A stretch of DNA of 64,000 nucleotides from positions 66,359-130,358 of IMG/VR virus record IMGVR_UViG_3300031578_000004; one strand, given 5' to 3'. The DNA comes from a virus. The notes under the pieces are model-generated. The model saw nothing but the letters and a program-made list of their open reading frames with translations, made no database searches and was not told where the DNA came from. The position numbers were made by a program, and so were the translations under genes. Shown piece after piece: positions 14,491 to 56,982 of this stretch (the stretch's first letter is position 1; each line of letters opens with the position of its first letter).

Positions 14491-14518
14491 TTGACATACT
14501 CCAAACACGTGCTATAAT
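14491..14518 (+). promoter_or_regulatory. Sigma-A-like promoter upstream of metK
   Basis: TTGACA-N16-TATAAT with TG extension. Confidence 0.65.
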
Positions 14519-14635
14519 TAGTATATGGAGGTGATGATGATAACGGAAACTTAGTGATTGCAACAAATGATTTATAGAAGTGTAAAGAACAAATAATATA
14601 AAAATAAACCAAACAACATAAAAGGAGAATTATAA

Positions 14636-15673
14636 ATGAAATTATATAGTAATGAGATAGTTTTTAGAGGACATCCTGATAAGACTTGTGACCAAATAAG
14701 TGATGCATTATTGGATGCTTATTTAAAAGGGGATAAATATACAAGAGCAGGAATTGAAGTAATGGGTGGTAAGGGTAAAATATTTGTCACAGGTGAGGTT
14801 ACATCAAAAACAGAAGTAAATGTAGAAGAAGTAGTAAAAAGAGTTGTAAAAGAAATAGGTTACAATCCAGATAATTATGAAGTAATAGACAATATAGGTA
14901 AACAAAGTCCAGATATAGCACAAGGAGTAGACTTAGGTGGTGCTGGTGATAATGGTATGATGTTTGGTTATGCTTGTAATGAAACTATAGAATTATTACC
15001 TAAAGCTATGATAATACTTCAAAAATTAAGTCAATCATATAATAATTTAACACATCTTTATATGTTTTTACCAGATGGTAAGGCTCAAATAACAGGTTAT
15101 TATGATGATGATTTTAGATTAAAAAAGATAAAGACATTTACTATATGTTATCAAAACACAGAAGACAATAGAGAATATACAGATAAGATAATTAAAAAAT
15201 TAGCTTTGAGTATATGCAAAGAATATGAGATAGAAGTAGAAGAGTTTTTAATTAATCCTACTGGTAAGTTTTTAATTGGATTTTTTGAAGGAGATGCAGG
15301 TTTAACAGGTAGAAAAATAGTAGTAGATGCATATCAAAGTTTTGCAAATGTTGGCGGAGGAGCTTATTCAGGGAAAGATGGTACGAAAGTAGATAGAAGT
15401 GGAGCATATAAATCAAGACAAATAGCAAAGAGATATTTAATAAAACATAACCTTAAATGGTGTGAAGTACAATTAAGTTATGCAATAGGCAAGGCAGAAC
15501 CATTGGCAATTTATATAGATAGTGATATAGGTAATTTAGATGCAGAAGATGGTTTATACCAAGAATGTATACCATCAAATATTATAAGAGAATTAGATTT
15601 AAGAGAACCGAAATTTGAGAAAACAGCTATGTATGGACATTATGGTAATTCAGATTTTAGTTGGGAAATGTAA
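14636..15673 (+). CDS. metK: S-adenosylmethionine synthetase
   Basis: GHPDKTCDQISDA, GAGDNG, GLTGRKIVVD, GGGAYSGKDGTKVDRSGAY motifs. Confidence 0.97.
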   Translation: MKLYSNEIVFRGHPDKTCDQISDALLDAYLKGDKYTRAGIEVMGGKGKIFVTGEVTSKTEVNVEEVVKRVVKEIGYNPDNYEVIDNIGKQSPDIAQGVDLGGAGDNGMMFGYACNETIELLPKAMIILQKLSQSYNNLTHLYMFLPDGKAQITGYYDDDFRLKKIKTFTICYQNTEDNREYTDKIIKKLALSICKEYEIEVEEFLINPTGKFLIGFFEGDAGLTGRKIVVDAYQSFANVGGGAYSGKDGTKVDRSGAYKSRQIAKRYLIKHNLKWCEVQLSYAIGKAEPLAIYIDSDIGNLDAEDGLYQECIPSNIIRELDLREPKFEKTAMYGHYGNSDFSWEM

Positions 15674-15714
15674 AACAAATAATATAAAAATAAAATAATA
15701 AAGGAGAATAATTA

Positions 15715-16504
15715 TTGAGGTATTTTGGCGGAAAAGCAAAGATTGCTAAAGATATAGCAAATTTTATTAATGGGAGGTTTCTATGCAATATTTCGGAGGA
15801 AAACAAAGGATTGCAAAACATATTGCAGAATGGCTTAACTCTACACACACACACACACACACTATGTAGAACCTTTTTGCGGAGCGTGTAATGTTGCATC
15901 TAAAATACATATTAAAAATAAGATATTAAATGATAAAAATCCATATTTAATTGAAATGTTTAAAGCAATTCAAAAAGGATGGATACCACCTACTTATGTA
16001 TCTGAAGAAGATTATGCCAATGCAAAAAAGAATCAAGATAATGAACCGCATATAGCAGGATTTGTTGGATTTGCTTGTAGCTTTGCAGGAAAGTTTTGGG
16101 GAGGATATGCTAGAGATAGTAAAGATGGTAGTGGAACTGGAAATTATGCTTTGAGAGGTCATAATAGTATTTTAAAGAAGATGGAAATATTGATGGATGC
16201 ACAATTTACATGTAAAGATTTTATGGAATTAGATTATGAAAATTGTTTAATTTATTGCGACCCTCCATATAAGGGAACTACACCTTATTATAAAAAGATA
16301 TTAGGAGAATTTCCATATGATAAGTTTTTAGAATGGGTTAAAGAACAAAGTAAGAATAATACAATAATAATTAGTGAATATAAACATAATGTTCCTAATG
16401 ATGCATACATAGTTTTGGAAATACCATCAAAAACAAGTATAAGAGATAAAACTGGCAATGTAATTGAAACAATTGAGGTTTTATGGACTTATAATAATTT
16501 TTAA
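15715..16504 (+). pseudogene. Dam/D12-class N6-adenine DNA methyltransferase, out of frame at an (AC)10 tract; two alternative N-termini (TTG 15715, ATG 15783)
   Basis: YFGGK in both N-termini; YVEPFCG motif I from 15863 and DPPY motif IV lie in a third frame. Confidence 0.85.
15843..15862 (+). repeat. (AC)10 microsatellite inside the methyltransferase gene
   Basis: CT-ACACACACACACACACACAC-TATGTAGAA. Confidence 0.95.
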
Positions 16505-16558
16505 TACATAAAACAAATAATATAAAAATAAAATAACAAAACGGAGGTAACAAAATAA

Positions 16559-17026
16559 ATGACAAACAACACAAACAATTCCACTTCCCCAGATTCCGAC
16601 TCCCAAATAGAAGGTTTTAACCACACAGGTATACTACTACTAAAGCCTATGCAAAACAAAATAGAATATAGACTATATGACACAAAGATACCTTATCCTA
16701 TATGTGTAGAGAATTGGGATGTAAATGAGAGTCTTGAATTACATACATATAAAAACACATCACAAGAAACATATATACATATTTCAAGCGGTAATGAATT
16801 AATATGTGAAGGTATAGGTAAATTGAATAAGTATGTTGAAAATGGAGTAGATAAATATTATTTAATTACAGGAAAATATGTAGATTATATAGACCTTGAA
16901 AGAATCTTATTTAACTCAACAGAAAAAACAATTAATATAAAAATAAACACATTCCACAACGAAGAAGTAATCGTAGATGAGAAAGGAAGTCAAGCAGATG
17001 AGTCAAGAGAAGAACAACAAAGTTAA
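16559..17026 (+). CDS. Hypothetical phage protein
   Basis: GGAGG RBS, 155 aa. Confidence 0.65.
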   Translation: MTNNTNNSTSPDSDSQIEGFNHTGILLLKPMQNKIEYRLYDTKIPYPICVENWDVNESLELHTYKNTSQETYIHISSGNELICEGIGKLNKYVENGVDKYYLITGKYVDYIDLERILFNSTEKTINIKINTFHNEEVIVDEKGSQADESREEQQS

Positions 17027-17195
17027 TACGGCTAAAAATGAAGGATACAGTGATGTTTATGAAAGTTGTAGTATTTGTGGTAGAGATATGAGCAATCCAA
17101 AATACATATTTGTAGAAGTAGATTCAGATTTATATATTTGTGCTATTTGTAAGAAAAAACATAATATTCATGCTGTACAATGTGCAGAGATATAG
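16998..17195 (+). CDS. Small zinc-finger protein
   Basis: CSICG...ICAIC pair of CxxC motifs. Confidence 0.6.
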   Translation: MSQEKNNKVNTAKNEGYSDVYESCSICGRDMSNPKYIFVEVDSDLYICAICKKKHNIHAVQCAEI

Positions 17196-18631: not shown

Positions 18632-18671
18632 GGAAATATGAGATATATAAAATTATAAGGAGGATACTAAA

Positions 18672-19538
18672 ATAGAATTTGAAAAATATAAATTAATAAA
18701 GAGTCCACTTAATTATGTGGGTGGCAAATATAAACTACTTCCGCAGATACTCCCTTTATTTCCTGAAAATATAAATAGGTTTGTTGATTTATTCTGTGGA
18801 GGAGGAAATATAGGGGTTAATGTAAAGGCAAAACAAATTATTTGTAATGACTTTCAAAAAGAAGTAATAGAATTTTTAGATGCATGTAATAACACAGATA
18901 GTGAAGAAATGTTGTTAAAAATATTAGATATTGTTAATACATATAAGTTATCCAAAACTAATGCAGAAGGGTATTTAAAACTAAGAGAAGATTACAATAA
19001 TGGACATAAATCTTGGCTGACTTTTTATTCTTTAATATGTCACGCTTTTAACAACCAGATAAGATTTAATTCTAAGGGTAATTACAATATGCCTTTTGGG
19101 AAAGATAGAAGTAGTTTTAATCCAACACTACAAAAGAAGTTCATTAATTTTGTTGATGAATTAAAAAAGAAAAATATAAAATTTATAAATAAAGACTTTA
19201 GAAAATTACCTTTTGATAAATTAAATTCCAATGATTTTGTATACGCAGACCCTCCGTATTTGATTACTTGTGCAAGTTATAATGAAAATGATGGTTGGAA
19301 TGAGAAACACGAAAGAGATTTAATTAGTTTACTAGATAAATTAAATAAGCAGGGAGTTAAATTTGCTTTAAGCAATGTGTTAGAAGATAAAGGTAAATCT
19401 AATGATATATTAAAAGAATGGGTAATTAAATATAATATTAATCATTTAAATCATACATATGGGAATTGTAATTATCAAGCAAAAGATAAAAGCAAAGATG
19501 GAACGGTTGAAGTTTTAATTACAAATTATAAATATTGA
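18672..19538 (+). CDS. dam: Dam-family DNA adenine methyltransferase (T4 Dam-like)
   Basis: KSPLNYVGGKYKL, FVDLFCGGG, RFNSKGNYNMPFG, YADPPY; the frame extends upstream to an ATA placed 7 nt after AAGGAGGA. Confidence 0.9.
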   Translation: MEFEKYKLIKSPLNYVGGKYKLLPQILPLFPENINRFVDLFCGGGNIGVNVKAKQIICNDFQKEVIEFLDACNNTDSEEMLLKILDIVNTYKLSKTNAEGYLKLREDYNNGHKSWLTFYSLICHAFNNQIRFNSKGNYNMPFGKDRSSFNPTLQKKFINFVDELKKKNIKFINKDFRKLPFDKLNSNDFVYADPPYLITCASYNENDGWNEKHERDLISLLDKLNKQGVKFALSNVLEDKGKSNDILKEWVIKYNINHLNHTYGNCNYQAKDKSKDGTVEVLITNYKY

Positions 19539-32907: not shown

Positions 32908-32924
32908 TACATTAATACAATAAC

Positions 32925-33003
32925 TATAAAATTATATATAAATATAAAATTATATATAAATATAAAATTATATATAAATATAAAATTATATATAAATATA
33001 AAA
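32925..33003 (+). repeat. Tandem 18-mer TATAAAATTATATATAAA, four copies plus a partial
   Basis: Units start at 32925, 32943, 32961, 32979. Confidence 0.92.
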
Positions 33004-33046
33004 TATATAAAACTAAAATTAAATAAAAAAGAAAGGAGGATTTCAA

Positions 33047-56082: not shown

Positions 56083-56982
56083 ATGTCATTAAAAAGAGAT
56101 AATTTCCCTTCTTCTACAGATTTTAGAAATTTAAAATCAAGAGTAAAAGCAGAAATGCTAAGAAGAAGTGGATATGGAACTTTAGTTGCATTCGGCGGAG
56201 CAACTTATGATTATACAGTAGTGCCTAAAGTTGATGACCTACCTAAGATTGAACATTATTCTAAAATTAGAGATGTAATGACAAATATAAATATAGCTTC
56301 TGTCGGTATGACTGTTAAAAAAGCTGATGATTTAGTAGCTGAAATGGTAGTATTAGAGGCTAATATGACAGTATTTGAAGCAAAGCCAAGAGGTGAGAGA
56401 AGTACTAGTGATTGTAGTTCTTTATGTACGGGTACTTGTATATCAGCTTGTACTACTACATGTACGGGAACTTGTTCAGGATATTGTACTGGTTGCACGG
56501 GAACTTGTTCAGGAGGTTGTACTAGTTGTACGGGAACTTGTTCAGGAGGTTGTACTAGTTGCACAAGCTGTACTGGTTGCACGGGAACTTGTTCAGGAAG
56601 CTGTAGTGGTTGCACGGGCTGTACTAGTTGCACGGGAACTTGTTTAGGATATTGTACTAGTTGCACAAACTGTACTGGTTGTACGGGAACTTGTTCAGGA
56701 GGTTGTAGTGGTTGCACGGGCTGTACTAGTTGCACAAACTGTACTGGTTGCACGGGAACTTGTTCAGGAGGTTGTAATGCCTGTCCTAGTGGTTGTGGAA
56801 GCTCTTGTTTTGGGGGTTGTTCCACTGGTTGTGGGGACTGTACTGGTACTTGTGTTGGTTGTACTGGTGGTTGTACTGGTGGTTGTTGGAATGGGTGTGA
56901 CGGGAGTTGTGGTACAGGATGTTCTATATGTACTAGTTGCACAGGTTGTTCTGGTGCTTGTGGTTTAAGTTGTACTTGTTAA
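56083..56982 (+). CDS. Cys-rich CxxC/CxxxC repeat protein, putative radical-SAM modification target
   Basis: 110-aa Cys-free N-domain followed by about 54 Cys in 189 Cys/Thr/Gly/Ser-rich residues. Confidence 0.85.

What the first reader, a model, noticed from the sequence alone, without database searches (positions are those of the whole stretch)
15700..16504. Three-state phase-variable DNA methyltransferase: two N-termini and the catalytic body each in a different frame around (AC)10
Seen: start A (TTG 15715, AAGGAG RBS, MRYFGGKAKIAKDIA) and start B (ATG 15783, GGGAGG RBS, MQYFGGKQRIAKHIA) are diverged duplicates of the Dam N-terminal motif. Both frames stay open into the (AC)10 tract, and the body (YVEPFCG...DPPY) is in the third frame. 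Frame arithmetic: 10 repeats = OFF, 9 or 12 = fusion to B, 8 or 11 = fusion to A with about 23 extra residues. Known: SSR slippage switches bacterial mod methyltransferases (phasevarions). Inference: a phage-borne switch with two ON isoforms and one OFF state, giving mixed methylation of progeny as a hedge against restriction and methyl-dependent defences.
Basis: partly seen in the sequence, partly recalled or inferred. Interest (0 to 1): 0.82.

Follow-up and report, generated by a model that had tools for sequence, protein, structure and literature searches.

The report
Three-way repeat switch in phage methylase
A large soil phage carries a DNA adenine methylase gene whose slippery AC repeat sits behind two alternative protein beginnings in different reading frames, so gaining or losing repeat units should toggle the enzyme between a long form, a short form and off.

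Summary
A perfect (AC)10 lies at 15843-15862. It is the only dinucleotide repeat of 6 or more units in the 130-kb phage record. It separates a Dam-type (Pfam PF02086) methylase body from two diverged copies of the family's N-terminal YFGGK motif, each with its own ribosome-binding site and its own frame. This copy is in the OFF phase.

Comparative data support the three-state reading.
- 34 of 35 distinct relatives at 58% identity or more keep a CA or GA repeat (4.5-23.5 units) at the same codon.
- 29 of them keep both N-termini: 6 are in the long-form phase, 11 in the short-form phase and 12 are off.
- Both N-termini are under purifying selection (dN/dS 0.08).
- The short form's isoleucine codons avoid ATA wherever ATA would put a stop in the long form's frame (0 of 45, against 150 of 272 elsewhere).

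No raw reads were available, so slippage within one phage population is not shown. Enzyme activity and target site are untested.

Five literature searches found no paper on this design. Earlier follow-ups in this scan reported the same design in a gut phage with (AG)11, and CA-repeat methylases in groundwater phages. I rate it a new variant of a known kind.

The parts
14491..14518 (+). Consensus sigma-70-type promoter (TTGACA, 16-nt spacer, TG, TATAAT; 12 of 12). It lies upstream of metK and is the likely promoter of the metK-methylase transcription unit.
   Evidence: No terminator-like site was found on the + strand between it and 17100. This is a consensus match only.
14636..15673 (+). Phage S-adenosylmethionine synthetase (MetK, 345 aa), immediately upstream of the methylase.
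   Evidence: PF00438, PF02772 and PF02773, E 1.7e-25 to 7e-40.
15672..15698 (+). 27-base gene-boundary repeat, upstream copy.
   Evidence: exact copies at 15672 and 16510, a third with 3 mismatches at 14586, and 0 expected in shuffles.
15700..15706 (+). Ribosome-binding site of start A (AAAGGAG), 8 bases before the TTG.
   Evidence: Read.
15715..15891 (+). Frame of N-terminus A. TTG start, MRYFGGKAKIAKDIANFING, then the B segment read out of frame, the repeat, and a stop 26 bases past the tract. It would join the body at 8 or 11 units (long isoform).
   Evidence: The segment is conserved with dN/dS 0.084. The frame is kept open in 28 of 29 relatives.
15772..15777 (+). Ribosome-binding site of start B (GGGAGG), 5 bases before the ATG.
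   Evidence: Read.
15783..15869 (+). Frame of N-terminus B. ATG start, MQYFGGKQRIAKHIAEWLNS, the repeat, then a stop at TAG 15867-15869. It would join the body at 9 or 12 units (short isoform with the family's usual spacing).
   Evidence: dN/dS 0.086.
15843..15862 (+). (AC)10 simple sequence repeat, the proposed slippage site. It encodes the (His-Thr)n linker in both frames that read into it, A and B, and in the body frame.
15839..16504 (+). Methylase body in the third frame: motif I region EPFCGAC (15869-15889), DPPY (16259-16270), stop at 16502-16504. It has no start codon of its own before 15956.
   Evidence: It is 84-86% identical to its nearest relatives.
16510..16536 (+). 27-base gene-boundary repeat, downstream copy. 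The methylase gene is bracketed by two identical copies.

Best explanation
This is a phage contingency locus, meaning a gene with a hypermutable repeat that switches it on and off. It controls an orphan Dam-type N6-adenine DNA methyltransferase.

The (AC)n tract lies in the loop between the enzyme's first helix, which follows the YFGGK motif, and the first strand of the AdoMet-binding fold (YVEPFCG). I infer that strand slippage during phage DNA replication adds or removes AC units, each of which moves the body by 2 bases.

The same N-terminal module is encoded twice upstream, in two different frames. Two of the three phases therefore give a full-length enzyme.
- Short form: from start B, with the family's normal spacing.
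- Long form: from start A, with about 24 extra residues that are simply the B segment read out of frame.
- Third phase, as in this window: two short peptides and no enzyme. The body lacks its N-terminal motif and has no start codon before motif I.

Shown here: the anatomy, its conservation, the occurrence of all three phases, and selection on both N-termini and on the openness of the A frame.

Inferred: that slippage is frequent within a phage population, that both isoforms are active, and that the mixture of methylated and unmethylated progeny is what is selected.

The two ON forms probably differ in amount. A often has a weak or non-canonical start and B mostly has ATG. They may also differ in DNA recognition.
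For: 1. Anatomy and frame arithmetic.

2. The repeat is not chance. It is the only dinucleotide repeat of 6 or more units in 130 kb of 28% G+C DNA.

3. Conservation. One search examined 35 distinct loci at 58% identity or more. 34 of them have a CA or GA run of 9-47 bases ending at or within 8 bases of the Tyr codon of YVEPF. 29 have both N-termini with A upstream of B. The A-to-B distance is 2 mod 3 in 28 of those 29.

4. All three phases occur among those 29: 6 A-in-frame, 11 B-in-frame, 12 neither. By my own chi-square (2.1, 2 d.f.) this does not differ from equal thirds. L112 and L114 come from one metagenome and their flanks are 95% and 98% identical. Their runs differ by two units (25 and 21 bases), and one is B-in-frame and the other off.

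5. Selection on the N-termini (Nei-Gojobori method, 406 pairs). dN/dS is 0.084 for A codons 2-20, 0.086 for B codons 2-19 and 0.17 for the first 60 body codons. The same segments read in their other frames give 1.07-2.8.

6. The A frame is kept open. Between the B start and the repeat (mean 19 codons), the A frame has a stop in 1 of 29 loci and the third frame in 27 of 29, with 43 stops in all.

7. Synonymous codon choice. ATA followed by A or G would create TAA or TAG in the A frame. Isoleucine codons in B that are followed by A or G are never ATA (0 of 45). ATA is used in 27 of 34 when C or T follows, in 49 of 70 such positions in the A segment that nothing overlaps, and in 101 of 202 in the body. 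Fisher's test gives 1e-14, though the loci are related and not independent.

8. Protein-database relatives fall into matching classes. Among the 120 listed hits, 31 are short forms with an HT or RE linker and 23 are long forms. Many others are N-terminally truncated gene calls. Long forms whose repeat has decayed but whose frame is intact exist (P0025, P0040, P0077, and locus L117). This suggests that the long form is a usable enzyme.

9. Structure predictions of natural relatives. The long form P0019 has mean pLDDT 81. Its N-terminal helix (residues 7-23) is confident (about 91) and its extra linker (residues 25-51) is below 50, so it looks like a disordered loop. The short form P0001 has mean pLDDT 83. 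The fold matches E. coli Dam, T4 Dam and DpnM.

10. Repeated origin. Other lineages in a separate, well-supported clade combine two N-termini with a different repeat: (GA)n in L052 and L084, G8 in L047, L039 and L066, and (GACA)n in L164.
Against: - No read-level data. The three runs that hold the stretch are kept only as contigs. The two that may be the source bridge the tract with exactly (AC)10. Heterogeneity within a population is therefore not shown.
- The long-form phase is the rarest (6 of 29).
- The A start codon is ATA, ATT or ATC in 14 of 29 loci and TTG in 5. In 5 of the ATA loci there is no canonical start upstream in frame. A may be poorly translated there.
- Two relatives have a mutated A motif (GRK in L090, GEK in L106). 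One has lost A by deletion (L105). One has an indel that uncouples A from the switch (L116).
- The B start is ATC or ATA in 6 of 29 loci.
- The loci come from a small number of related environmental samples and are phylogenetically related, so counts and P values overstate independence.
- Enzyme activity, target sequence and any fitness effect are untested.
- The first six residues have pLDDT below 50 in both models.
- The two models were not superposed.
Confidence: 0.72

Rival explanations
1. A two-state switch only. The repeat turns the short (B) enzyme on and off. The upstream A copy is not an alternative N-terminus but a translated leader (uORF) or a slowly decaying relic of a 5' duplication.
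For: - B has the family's normal spacing to motif I: -75 to -106 bases here against -81 in single-copy relatives.
- B mostly has ATG (23 of 29). A often has weak or non-canonical starts (19 of 29 are not ATG).
- A-in-frame is the rarest phase (6 of 29).
- A is damaged or lost in L090, L106, L105 and L116.
Against: - A leader or a relic would not need to stay open as far as the repeat. Yet it is open in 28 of 29 loci, while the third frame carries 43 stops.
- B's synonymous codons avoid exactly the ATA codons that would close the A frame (0 of 45).
- A keeps the enzyme's own motif, with dN/dS 0.084 at near-saturated synonymous divergence (pS 0.69).
- Long forms persist in frame where the repeat has decayed (P0025, P0040, P0077).
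Confidence: 0.15
2. The frame break is overcome without any DNA change. Transcriptional slippage or ribosomal frameshifting on the AC tract makes enzyme from the 10-unit allele. The locus would then be a constant low-level expression device, or a leaky switch, and not a heritable one.
For: A 2026 preprint (10.64898/2026.04.01.715767; abstract and outline read) reports low, frame-dependent expression from out-of-frame (AG)n constructs of a Mycoplasma bovis mod gene in E. coli.
Against: The DNA length itself differs among relatives and places them in all three phases. Two conserved N-termini in two frames are not needed for a non-heritable frameshift. Leakiness could coexist with the heritable switch.
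Confidence: 0.08
3. An artefact or a dead gene. On this reading, an assembly or sequencing error in the repeat, or a pseudogene in decay.
For: This copy is out of frame, and it rests on one assembly and its probable source runs.
Against: - Dozens of independent assemblies carry the repeat at the same codon with many different lengths.
- The body is intact over 221 codons and is 84-86% identical to in-frame relatives.
- Both N-termini and both ribosome-binding sites are intact.
- Dinucleotide repeats are not a typical short-read error site. This last point is general knowledge and was not tested here.
Confidence: 0.03

Closest known systems
Phase-variable DNA methyltransferases of bacteria with intragenic repeats. 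Examples are the Type III mod 'phasevarions' and M.MmyCI of Mycoplasma mycoides with (AG)12 (PMC3498834, listing and abstract start seen). The surveys PMC5909438 and PMC7383803 were seen as listings only.
   Same: A simple repeat inside the coding region of an N6-adenine methylase sets the reading frame. A dinucleotide unit has a precedent in MmyCI.
   Different: - This is an orphan D12/Dam-class enzyme on a phage, with no res partner. It is not a Type III mod.
- The repeat sits between the N-terminal motif and motif I.
- A second, frame-shifted copy of the N-terminus makes two of the three phases productive.
- No regulon was shown, so it is not a phasevarion by definition.
Haemophilus influenzae lic1 (licA) translational switch. 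(CAAT)n lies downstream of three start codons that occupy two of the three frames (PMC2212159, passages read).
   Same: The repeat lies between alternative start codons and the body. Two frames are productive and one is off. In that paper, revertants and clinical samples preferentially used one of the two productive frames.
   Different: - In lic1 the alternative starts add only a few leader residues. Here each start brings its own copy of a conserved catalytic-domain motif and helix, so an essential module is duplicated in two frames.
- The unit is a dinucleotide and not a tetranucleotide.
- The gene is viral.
Phage contingency loci (Gomez, Barrick and Waters, bioRxiv 10.1101/2025.10.21.683753; abstract and four passages read).
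   Same: Hypermutable repeats in phage genes produce reversible frameshifts and mixed progeny as a bet hedge against host defence.
   Different: - That work deals with homopolymer runs of 6 or more bases in T2, T4 and other phages, such as T2 agt. A text search of it found 'dinucleotide' 0 times.
- Its single mention of a methylase is a polyG tract in a thymine methylase gene of phage BBP-1.
- It describes no dual-start design.
Earlier follow-ups of this scan: e1-2902255 (gut-phage Dam with (AG)11 and a frame-shifted duplicate N-terminus) and e1-5390105 / e1-5390098 (phage Dam with (CA)35).
   Same: The same design idea. The GA-repeat, two-N-terminus lineage seen here (L052, L084) may be the one that e1-2902255 describes.
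   Different: - This clade uses CA repeats. One sub-lineage has switched to GA.
- Its A-to-B offset is 2 mod 3, against 58 bases (1 mod 3) in L052 and L084.
- It lies in a separate clade of the tree.
- Those notes are unpublished AI reports and not independent evidence.
E. coli Dam and T4 Dam (solved structures 2g1p, 4rtn, 1yfl and others).
   Same: The fold matches: Foldseek E 1.6e-8 and TM about 0.5 for the model of relative P0019. The N-terminal motif aligns with K9-W-A-G-G-K14 of E. coli Dam.
   Different: About 18-23% identity. The target site of the phage enzyme is unknown. The residue at the K9 position is Arg in copy A and Gln in copy B.

Membership tests
D12-class (Dam-type) N6-adenine DNA methyltransferase, Pfam PF02086 | A match to the family profile above its curated cut-off. 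| tested here: met
   58.1 bits against a cut-off of 22, for the body alone; the genome search finds the same two stretches.
D12-class (Dam-type) N6-adenine DNA methyltransferase, Pfam PF02086 | Catalytic DPPY motif and the FxG AdoMet-binding motif I. | tested here: met
   YCDPPYKG at 16259-16270 and YVEPFCGAC at 15863-15889. Both are invariant or nearly so in 35 aligned relatives.
D12-class (Dam-type) N6-adenine DNA methyltransferase, Pfam PF02086 | The N-terminal motif (YxGGK type; K9-W-A-G-G-K14 in E. coli Dam) in frame with the body. | tested here: not met
   In this copy the motif is present twice, but neither copy is in the body's frame. In relatives it is in frame in 17 of 29. The gene is a member. 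This allele is in a non-productive phase.
D12-class (Dam-type) N6-adenine DNA methyltransferase, Pfam PF02086 | Dam fold. | tested here: met
   AlphaFold2 models of relatives P0019 and P0001. Foldseek top hits are E. coli Dam, T4 Dam and DpnM. The window's own fused protein was not modelled.
D12-class (Dam-type) N6-adenine DNA methyltransferase, Pfam PF02086 | Methylation of adenine in a defined target such as GATC. | not testable with these tools
   It needs a methylome or an enzyme assay.
Repeat-driven contingency (phase-variable) locus | A perfect simple repeat in or at the 5' end of the coding region, long enough to slip. | tested here: met
   (AC)10. It is unique in the genome.
Repeat-driven contingency (phase-variable) locus | Repeat number differs between closely related copies and moves the gene in and out of frame. 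| tested here: met
   Runs of 9-47 bases and all three phases among 29 relatives. L112 and L114, with near-identical flanks, differ by 2 units.
Repeat-driven contingency (phase-variable) locus | Length heterogeneity within one population, and a measured switching rate. | not testable with these tools
   Only contigs were available. In an independent run (X3), contigs end on both sides of the tract at 15834 and 15872.
Phasevarion (phase-variable Type III or Type I methylase that controls a regulon) | The methylase is the mod or hsdM/hsdS subunit of a Type III or Type I restriction-modification system. | tested here: not met
   It is a D12 Type II-like orphan enzyme. Its neighbours are metK and small ORFs with no Pfam match. 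It works like one at the level of the switch, but it is not a member.
Multi-start translational switch of the lic1 type | Start codons in two of the three frames upstream of the repeat. | tested here: met
   TTG 15715 (frame 1) and ATG 15783 (frame 0), each with a ribosome-binding site. The third frame is closed by a TAA at 15836-15838. The arrangement is conserved in 28 of 29 relatives.
Multi-start translational switch of the lic1 type | The two productive frames give different expression or phenotype. | not tested
   The only hint is from start codons: A is ATG in 10 of 29 loci and B in 23 of 29.

The most novel reading that the evidence does not exclude
The two ON phases may make enzymes with different DNA recognition, and not only different amounts. 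The residue aligned with Lys9 of E. coli Dam is Arg in every upstream copy and Gln in every downstream copy of the 29 canonical loci. Only L118 has the order reversed. A paper I read in passages assigns Lys9, together with Tyr138, to recognition of the first base pair of GATC (PMC4417163). The same paper says that this contact is not conserved across the Dam family.

If the Arg and Gln forms read the first base pair differently, one dinucleotide repeat would toggle a virus between two methylation patterns and none. That would be a heritable three-state epigenetic identity for escaping both restriction and methylation-dependent defence. The design appears to have arisen more than once in phages.
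Probability: 0.2. Interest if true: 0.9.

Novelty: new variant of a known kind. Interest (0 to 1): 0.74.

Why it matters
Repeat-driven phase variation of methylases is a textbook bacterial strategy. Contingency loci in phages have only just been claimed, for homopolymer runs (2025 preprint).

This locus differs in three ways.
- A virus has built the switch into an orphan Dam-type enzyme with a dinucleotide repeat.
- An essential N-terminal module is encoded twice in overlapping frames, so two of the three phases are productive.
- Selection is visible at synonymous sites to keep that overlap readable.

This is a compact, testable example of overprinting used for a three-state heritable switch. 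The design recurs in separate methylase lineages with different repeat types, which argues that it is adaptive.

In practice, such genes are routinely annotated as truncated or frameshifted. Phage methylation capacity is therefore under-called. The methylation state of phage stocks carrying such loci may be mixed, which bears on host-range and defence assays.

Tried and rejected
Read-level test. The look-up of sequencing runs gave three soil-metagenome runs, all kept as contigs. Read laying showed the two possible source runs bridging the tract with (AC)10 and no gaps. The third run's contigs stopped at 15834 and 15872, at depth 3-6. This cannot show or exclude heterogeneity, and I draw nothing from it.

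Search for another assembly of the same phage.
- An exact-flank pattern scan of viral contigs found 0 matches.
- blastn of 14600-17100 against 50,697 phage records found only short metK matches to Streptococcus phages and nothing for the methylase.

Host assignment. The genome-contig scan gave no relative above 51% identity. The nearest were mostly Clostridia and other Bacillota, as MAGs and isolates. The host stays unassigned.

Gene context. metK is not linked to the methylase in relatives: 1 of the loci searched, L116, has it, and there it lies downstream. I dropped the idea of a conserved metK-methylase module.

Third N-terminus. The body frame upstream of the tract is closed by a TAA at 15836-15838 and has stops in 27 of 29 relatives. 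I rejected the idea of a third N-terminus in that frame.

Literature. Five searches found no paper on a phage Dam-type methylase with a dinucleotide repeat and dual starts. The library lacks most subscription journals. Supplements were closed and I did not ask for any. One search for the Lys9 literature returned only unrelated papers. The needed passage came from PMC4417163.

Recalled and not checked: Levinson and Gutman (1987) on frequent 2-base frameshifts in poly-CA tracts carried by phage M13. I offer it only as a lead for the slippage step.

Limits of the counts.
- The regex classification of the 120 database proteins misfiles some distant hits whose motif I differs. I use only its two clear classes.
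- Rows dropped before the counts: loci with less than about 215 bases upstream of the match, exact duplicates of the upstream 239 bases, and hits whose alignment did not start within the first 3 query residues.
Full report
**What is there**

The window is bases 66359-130358 of a 130,358-base IMG/VR virus record, which CheckV estimates to be 78% complete. Its G+C content is 28%.

At 15843-15862 there is a perfect (AC)10. A scan of the whole record finds no other dinucleotide repeat of 6 or more units. The expectation for such a run at this base composition is about 5e-8.

Three reading frames meet at the tract.
- Frame 1 starts at TTG 15715, eight bases after AAAGGAG. It reads MRYFGGKAKIAKDIANFING and continues through the tract to a stop at 15889-15891.
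- Frame 0 starts at ATG 15783, five bases after GGGAGG. It reads MQYFGGKQRIAKHIAEWLNS, then the tract, and stops at TAG 15867-15869.
- Frame 2 opens only at 15839. It reads (TH)n-YVEPFCGAC...DPPY... to 16504.

The frame-2 product matches the D12/Dam family PF02086 from profile position 20 onward. It therefore lacks exactly the N-terminal motif that frames 0 and 1 each encode. One AC unit shifts the body by 2 bases, so 9 or 12 units join it to B, 8 or 11 join it to A, and 10 units, as here, join it to neither.

**Relatives**

A search of the 5.8-billion-protein collection with the body gave 501 proteins at E of 0.001 or better among 598 candidates. The best 120 are listed, from metagenomes and unnamed assemblies. 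Their sequences fall into three kinds.
- Short forms, which begin MQYFGGKQ and have an (HT)n or (RE)n linker before YVEPF.
- Long forms, which begin MRYFGGKSKIAK and read ...CNISEENKE... before the linker.
- Gene calls that begin downstream of the N-terminus.

CNISEENK is simply MQYFGGK read one base out of register. The long forms therefore contain the B start inside them.

I then fetched DNA: 80 loci from viral contigs and 80 from metagenome contigs. I located the body by tblastn and looked upstream in all three frames. Near-end loci and exact duplicates were dropped, which left 35 distinct loci at 58% identity or more.
- 34 have a CA or GA run of 9 to 47 bases that ends at or within 8 bases of the Tyr codon. 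The exception, L122, is the sister of the clade. It has a single N-terminus at the family's usual distance of -81.
- 29 have both N-termini with A upstream. The A-to-B distance is 2 mod 3 in 28 of these 29.
- Among the 29, six have A in frame, eleven have B in frame and twelve have neither. By my own chi-square this is not distinguishable from equal thirds.
- L112 and L114 come from one metagenome. Their flanks are 95% and 98% identical and their runs differ by two units. One is B-in-frame and the other is off.

The other five repeat-bearing loci are informative exceptions.
- In L090 and L106 the A motif is mutated.
- In L105 A is deleted.
- In L161 the N-terminal region has been replaced.
- In L118 the order of the R and Q copies is reversed, and a G9 run lies between them.

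**Is the second N-terminus used?**

Three tests say that it is under selection as protein and as a fusion partner.

First, Nei-Gojobori dN/dS over 406 pairs is 0.084 for A codons 2-20, 0.086 for B codons 2-19 and 0.17 for the first 60 body codons. Synonymous sites are near saturation (pS about 0.68). The same segments read in the other frames give 1.07-2.8. The B segment read in the A frame, which forms the long form's extra linker, gives 1.07, so the linker's sequence is unconstrained.

Second, between the B start and the repeat the A frame has a stop in 1 of 29 loci. The third frame has 43 stops, spread over 27 of 29 loci.

Third, the A frame is kept open through synonymous choice. An isoleucine codon ATA in B followed by A or G would create TAA or TAG in the A frame. 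Such codons are ATA in 0 of 45 cases. The figure is 27 of 34 when C or T follows, 49 of 70 in the A segment (which nothing overlaps), and 101 of 202 in the body.

A relic or a simple leader peptide would not need this. The loci are related and come from few environments, so the P value (1e-14) overstates independence. The contrast within the same genes is still hard to explain otherwise.

Long forms also persist in frame where the repeat has decayed: P0025, P0040, P0077 and L117.

**Structure**

The models are of natural relatives, not of an edited window sequence. The long form P0019 has mean pLDDT 81. It has a confident first helix (residues 7-23) and a low-confidence stretch at residues 25-51, which is the out-of-frame B segment. 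The short form P0001 has mean pLDDT 83.

Foldseek places the long form with E. coli Dam, T4 Dam and DpnM. Sequence search of the solved structures finds T4 Dam and E. coli Dam only weakly.

The repeat-encoded (His-Thr)n therefore lies in the loop between helix 1 and strand 1. Variable length there is plausibly tolerated. In-frame relatives carry two to seven HT pairs.

**How the two ON forms might differ**

Start codons differ. A is ATG in 10 of 29 loci, TTG in 5, and ATA, ATT or ATC in 14. B is ATG in 23. This suggests high, low and off levels, as in lic1 of Haemophilus influenzae (PMC2212159, passages).

The copies also keep their own signatures. The upstream copy has Arg at position 2 and the downstream copy has Gln, in all 29 canonical loci (general motif search). 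An alignment with E. coli K-12 Dam puts this residue at Lys9. Passages of PMC4417163 name K9 and Y138 as the contacts that recognise the first base pair, and say that this contact varies across the Dam family. A difference in target recognition between the isoforms is therefore possible. It is entirely untested.

**Context**

A 12-of-12 sigma-70-type promoter at 14491-14518 precedes a phage metK (14636-15673) and the methylase. No terminator-like site lies between them on the + strand.

The methylase gene is bracketed by identical 27-base repeats at 15672 and 16510, and a third, diverged copy lies before metK. This fits the gene-boundary repeats that an earlier follow-up described in this genome. 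Linkage to metK is not conserved in relatives.

The record also holds a second, uninterrupted D12 methylase at 18717-19538. It has only 15 GATC sites against about 330 expected from base composition.

**Origins**

In a quick maximum-likelihood tree of 124 bodies, the window's clade (29 rows, SH-aLRT 97) is entirely repeat-bearing. Its sister L122 and the neighbouring 15-row clade are almost all single-start and repeat-free.

Other combinations of two N-termini with a repeat sit in a separate 45-row clade with support 100: (GA)n in L052 and L084, G8 in L047, L039 and L066, and (GACA)n in L164. In L052 and L084 the two copies lie 58 bases apart, a different frame offset (1 mod 3). The tree needs at least 8 gains or losses of the two-N-terminus state. 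The design has therefore most likely arisen more than once. Within the window's own clade, one sub-lineage (L100, L101, L103) has exchanged CA for GA.

**Comparison with what is known**

The switch works like bacterial phase-variable methylases and like the lic1 multi-start switch.

It is not a phasevarion in the defined sense. There is no Type III or Type I system and no demonstrated regulon.

The 2025 preprint on phage contingency loci says that such loci had not been reported in phages before. It deals with homopolymers, and a text search of it found no mention of dinucleotide repeats.

Five full-text searches found no description of this design. The library has known gaps.

Within this scan the same idea has been reported before on other DNA: e1-2902255, e1-5390105 and e1-5390098. 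This finding adds a second, independent lineage and the synonymous-site test.

**Verdict**

Slippage within a population, the activity of both isoforms and the selective benefit remain to be shown. I rate it a new variant of a known kind, with interest 0.74.

Noticed in passing
whole record G000 (window = 66359-130358 of it): GATC is strongly under-represented: 15 sites against about 330 expected from base composition. TCGA has 83 against 330. GANTC, CATG, GTAC and CTAG are only mildly low (199-258). This suggests long exposure to GATC-directed restriction. It bears on what the two Dam-type methylases protect.
   Followed up: partly
window 18717-19538 (+); the open frame starts further upstream, near 18651: A second, uninterrupted D12/Dam-type methylase (PF02086, 141 bits over the full profile). 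It has DPPY and an N-terminal ...NYVGGKYKLL motif and no repeat. The phage thus has one constant and one switchable Dam-like enzyme.
   Followed up: partly
window 14586-14612, 15672-15698, 16510-16536: A 27-base AT-rich element sits just upstream of the ribosome-binding sites of three consecutive genes (metK, the methylase and the next ORF). Two copies are identical. Shuffles expect 0. It may be a gene-boundary or promoter-like cassette repeat, and weaker copies lie elsewhere in the record.
   Followed up: partly
window 14491-14518: A perfect extended -10 sigma-70 consensus promoter (TTGACA, 16-nt spacer, TG, TATAAT) lies 118 bases before metK.
   Followed up: no
window 14636-15673: The phage encodes an S-adenosylmethionine synthetase. 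Its only DNA-level matches in the phage collection are short stretches of metK in 61 Streptococcus phage records and one Acinetobacter phage record.
   Followed up: no
L164; L047, L039 and L066; L118; L040-L044; L074, L079, L081 and L085: Distant Dam-type phage methylases carry other repeat types at the same place. L164 has (GACA)n with two N-termini. L047, L039 and L066 have G8 with two N-termini. L118 has a G9 run between the two copies as well as (AC)10. L040-L044 have G7-G8 runs, and L074, L079, L081 and L085 have (GA)7-12 with one detected N-terminus.
   Followed up: partly
window 56464-56888: Long, imperfect tandem repeats of period 33, 51 or 102 bases, rich in TGT, TGC and GGA codons. 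They are probably a Cys/Gly/Thr-rich repeat protein, perhaps a structural or tail-fibre protein.
   Followed up: no
window 32920-33029: An 18-base AT-rich unit (ATAAATATAAAATTATAT) is repeated 6.3 times at 91% match. It may be an iteron or origin-like array.
   Followed up: no
L092, L094, L099, L105, L103, L101, L120: In these relatives the B copy begins with ATC or ATA at the normal distance from a strong GGAGG site. At least L105 has no canonical start in the open frame. This points to non-canonical initiation or deliberately weak translation.
   Followed up: partly
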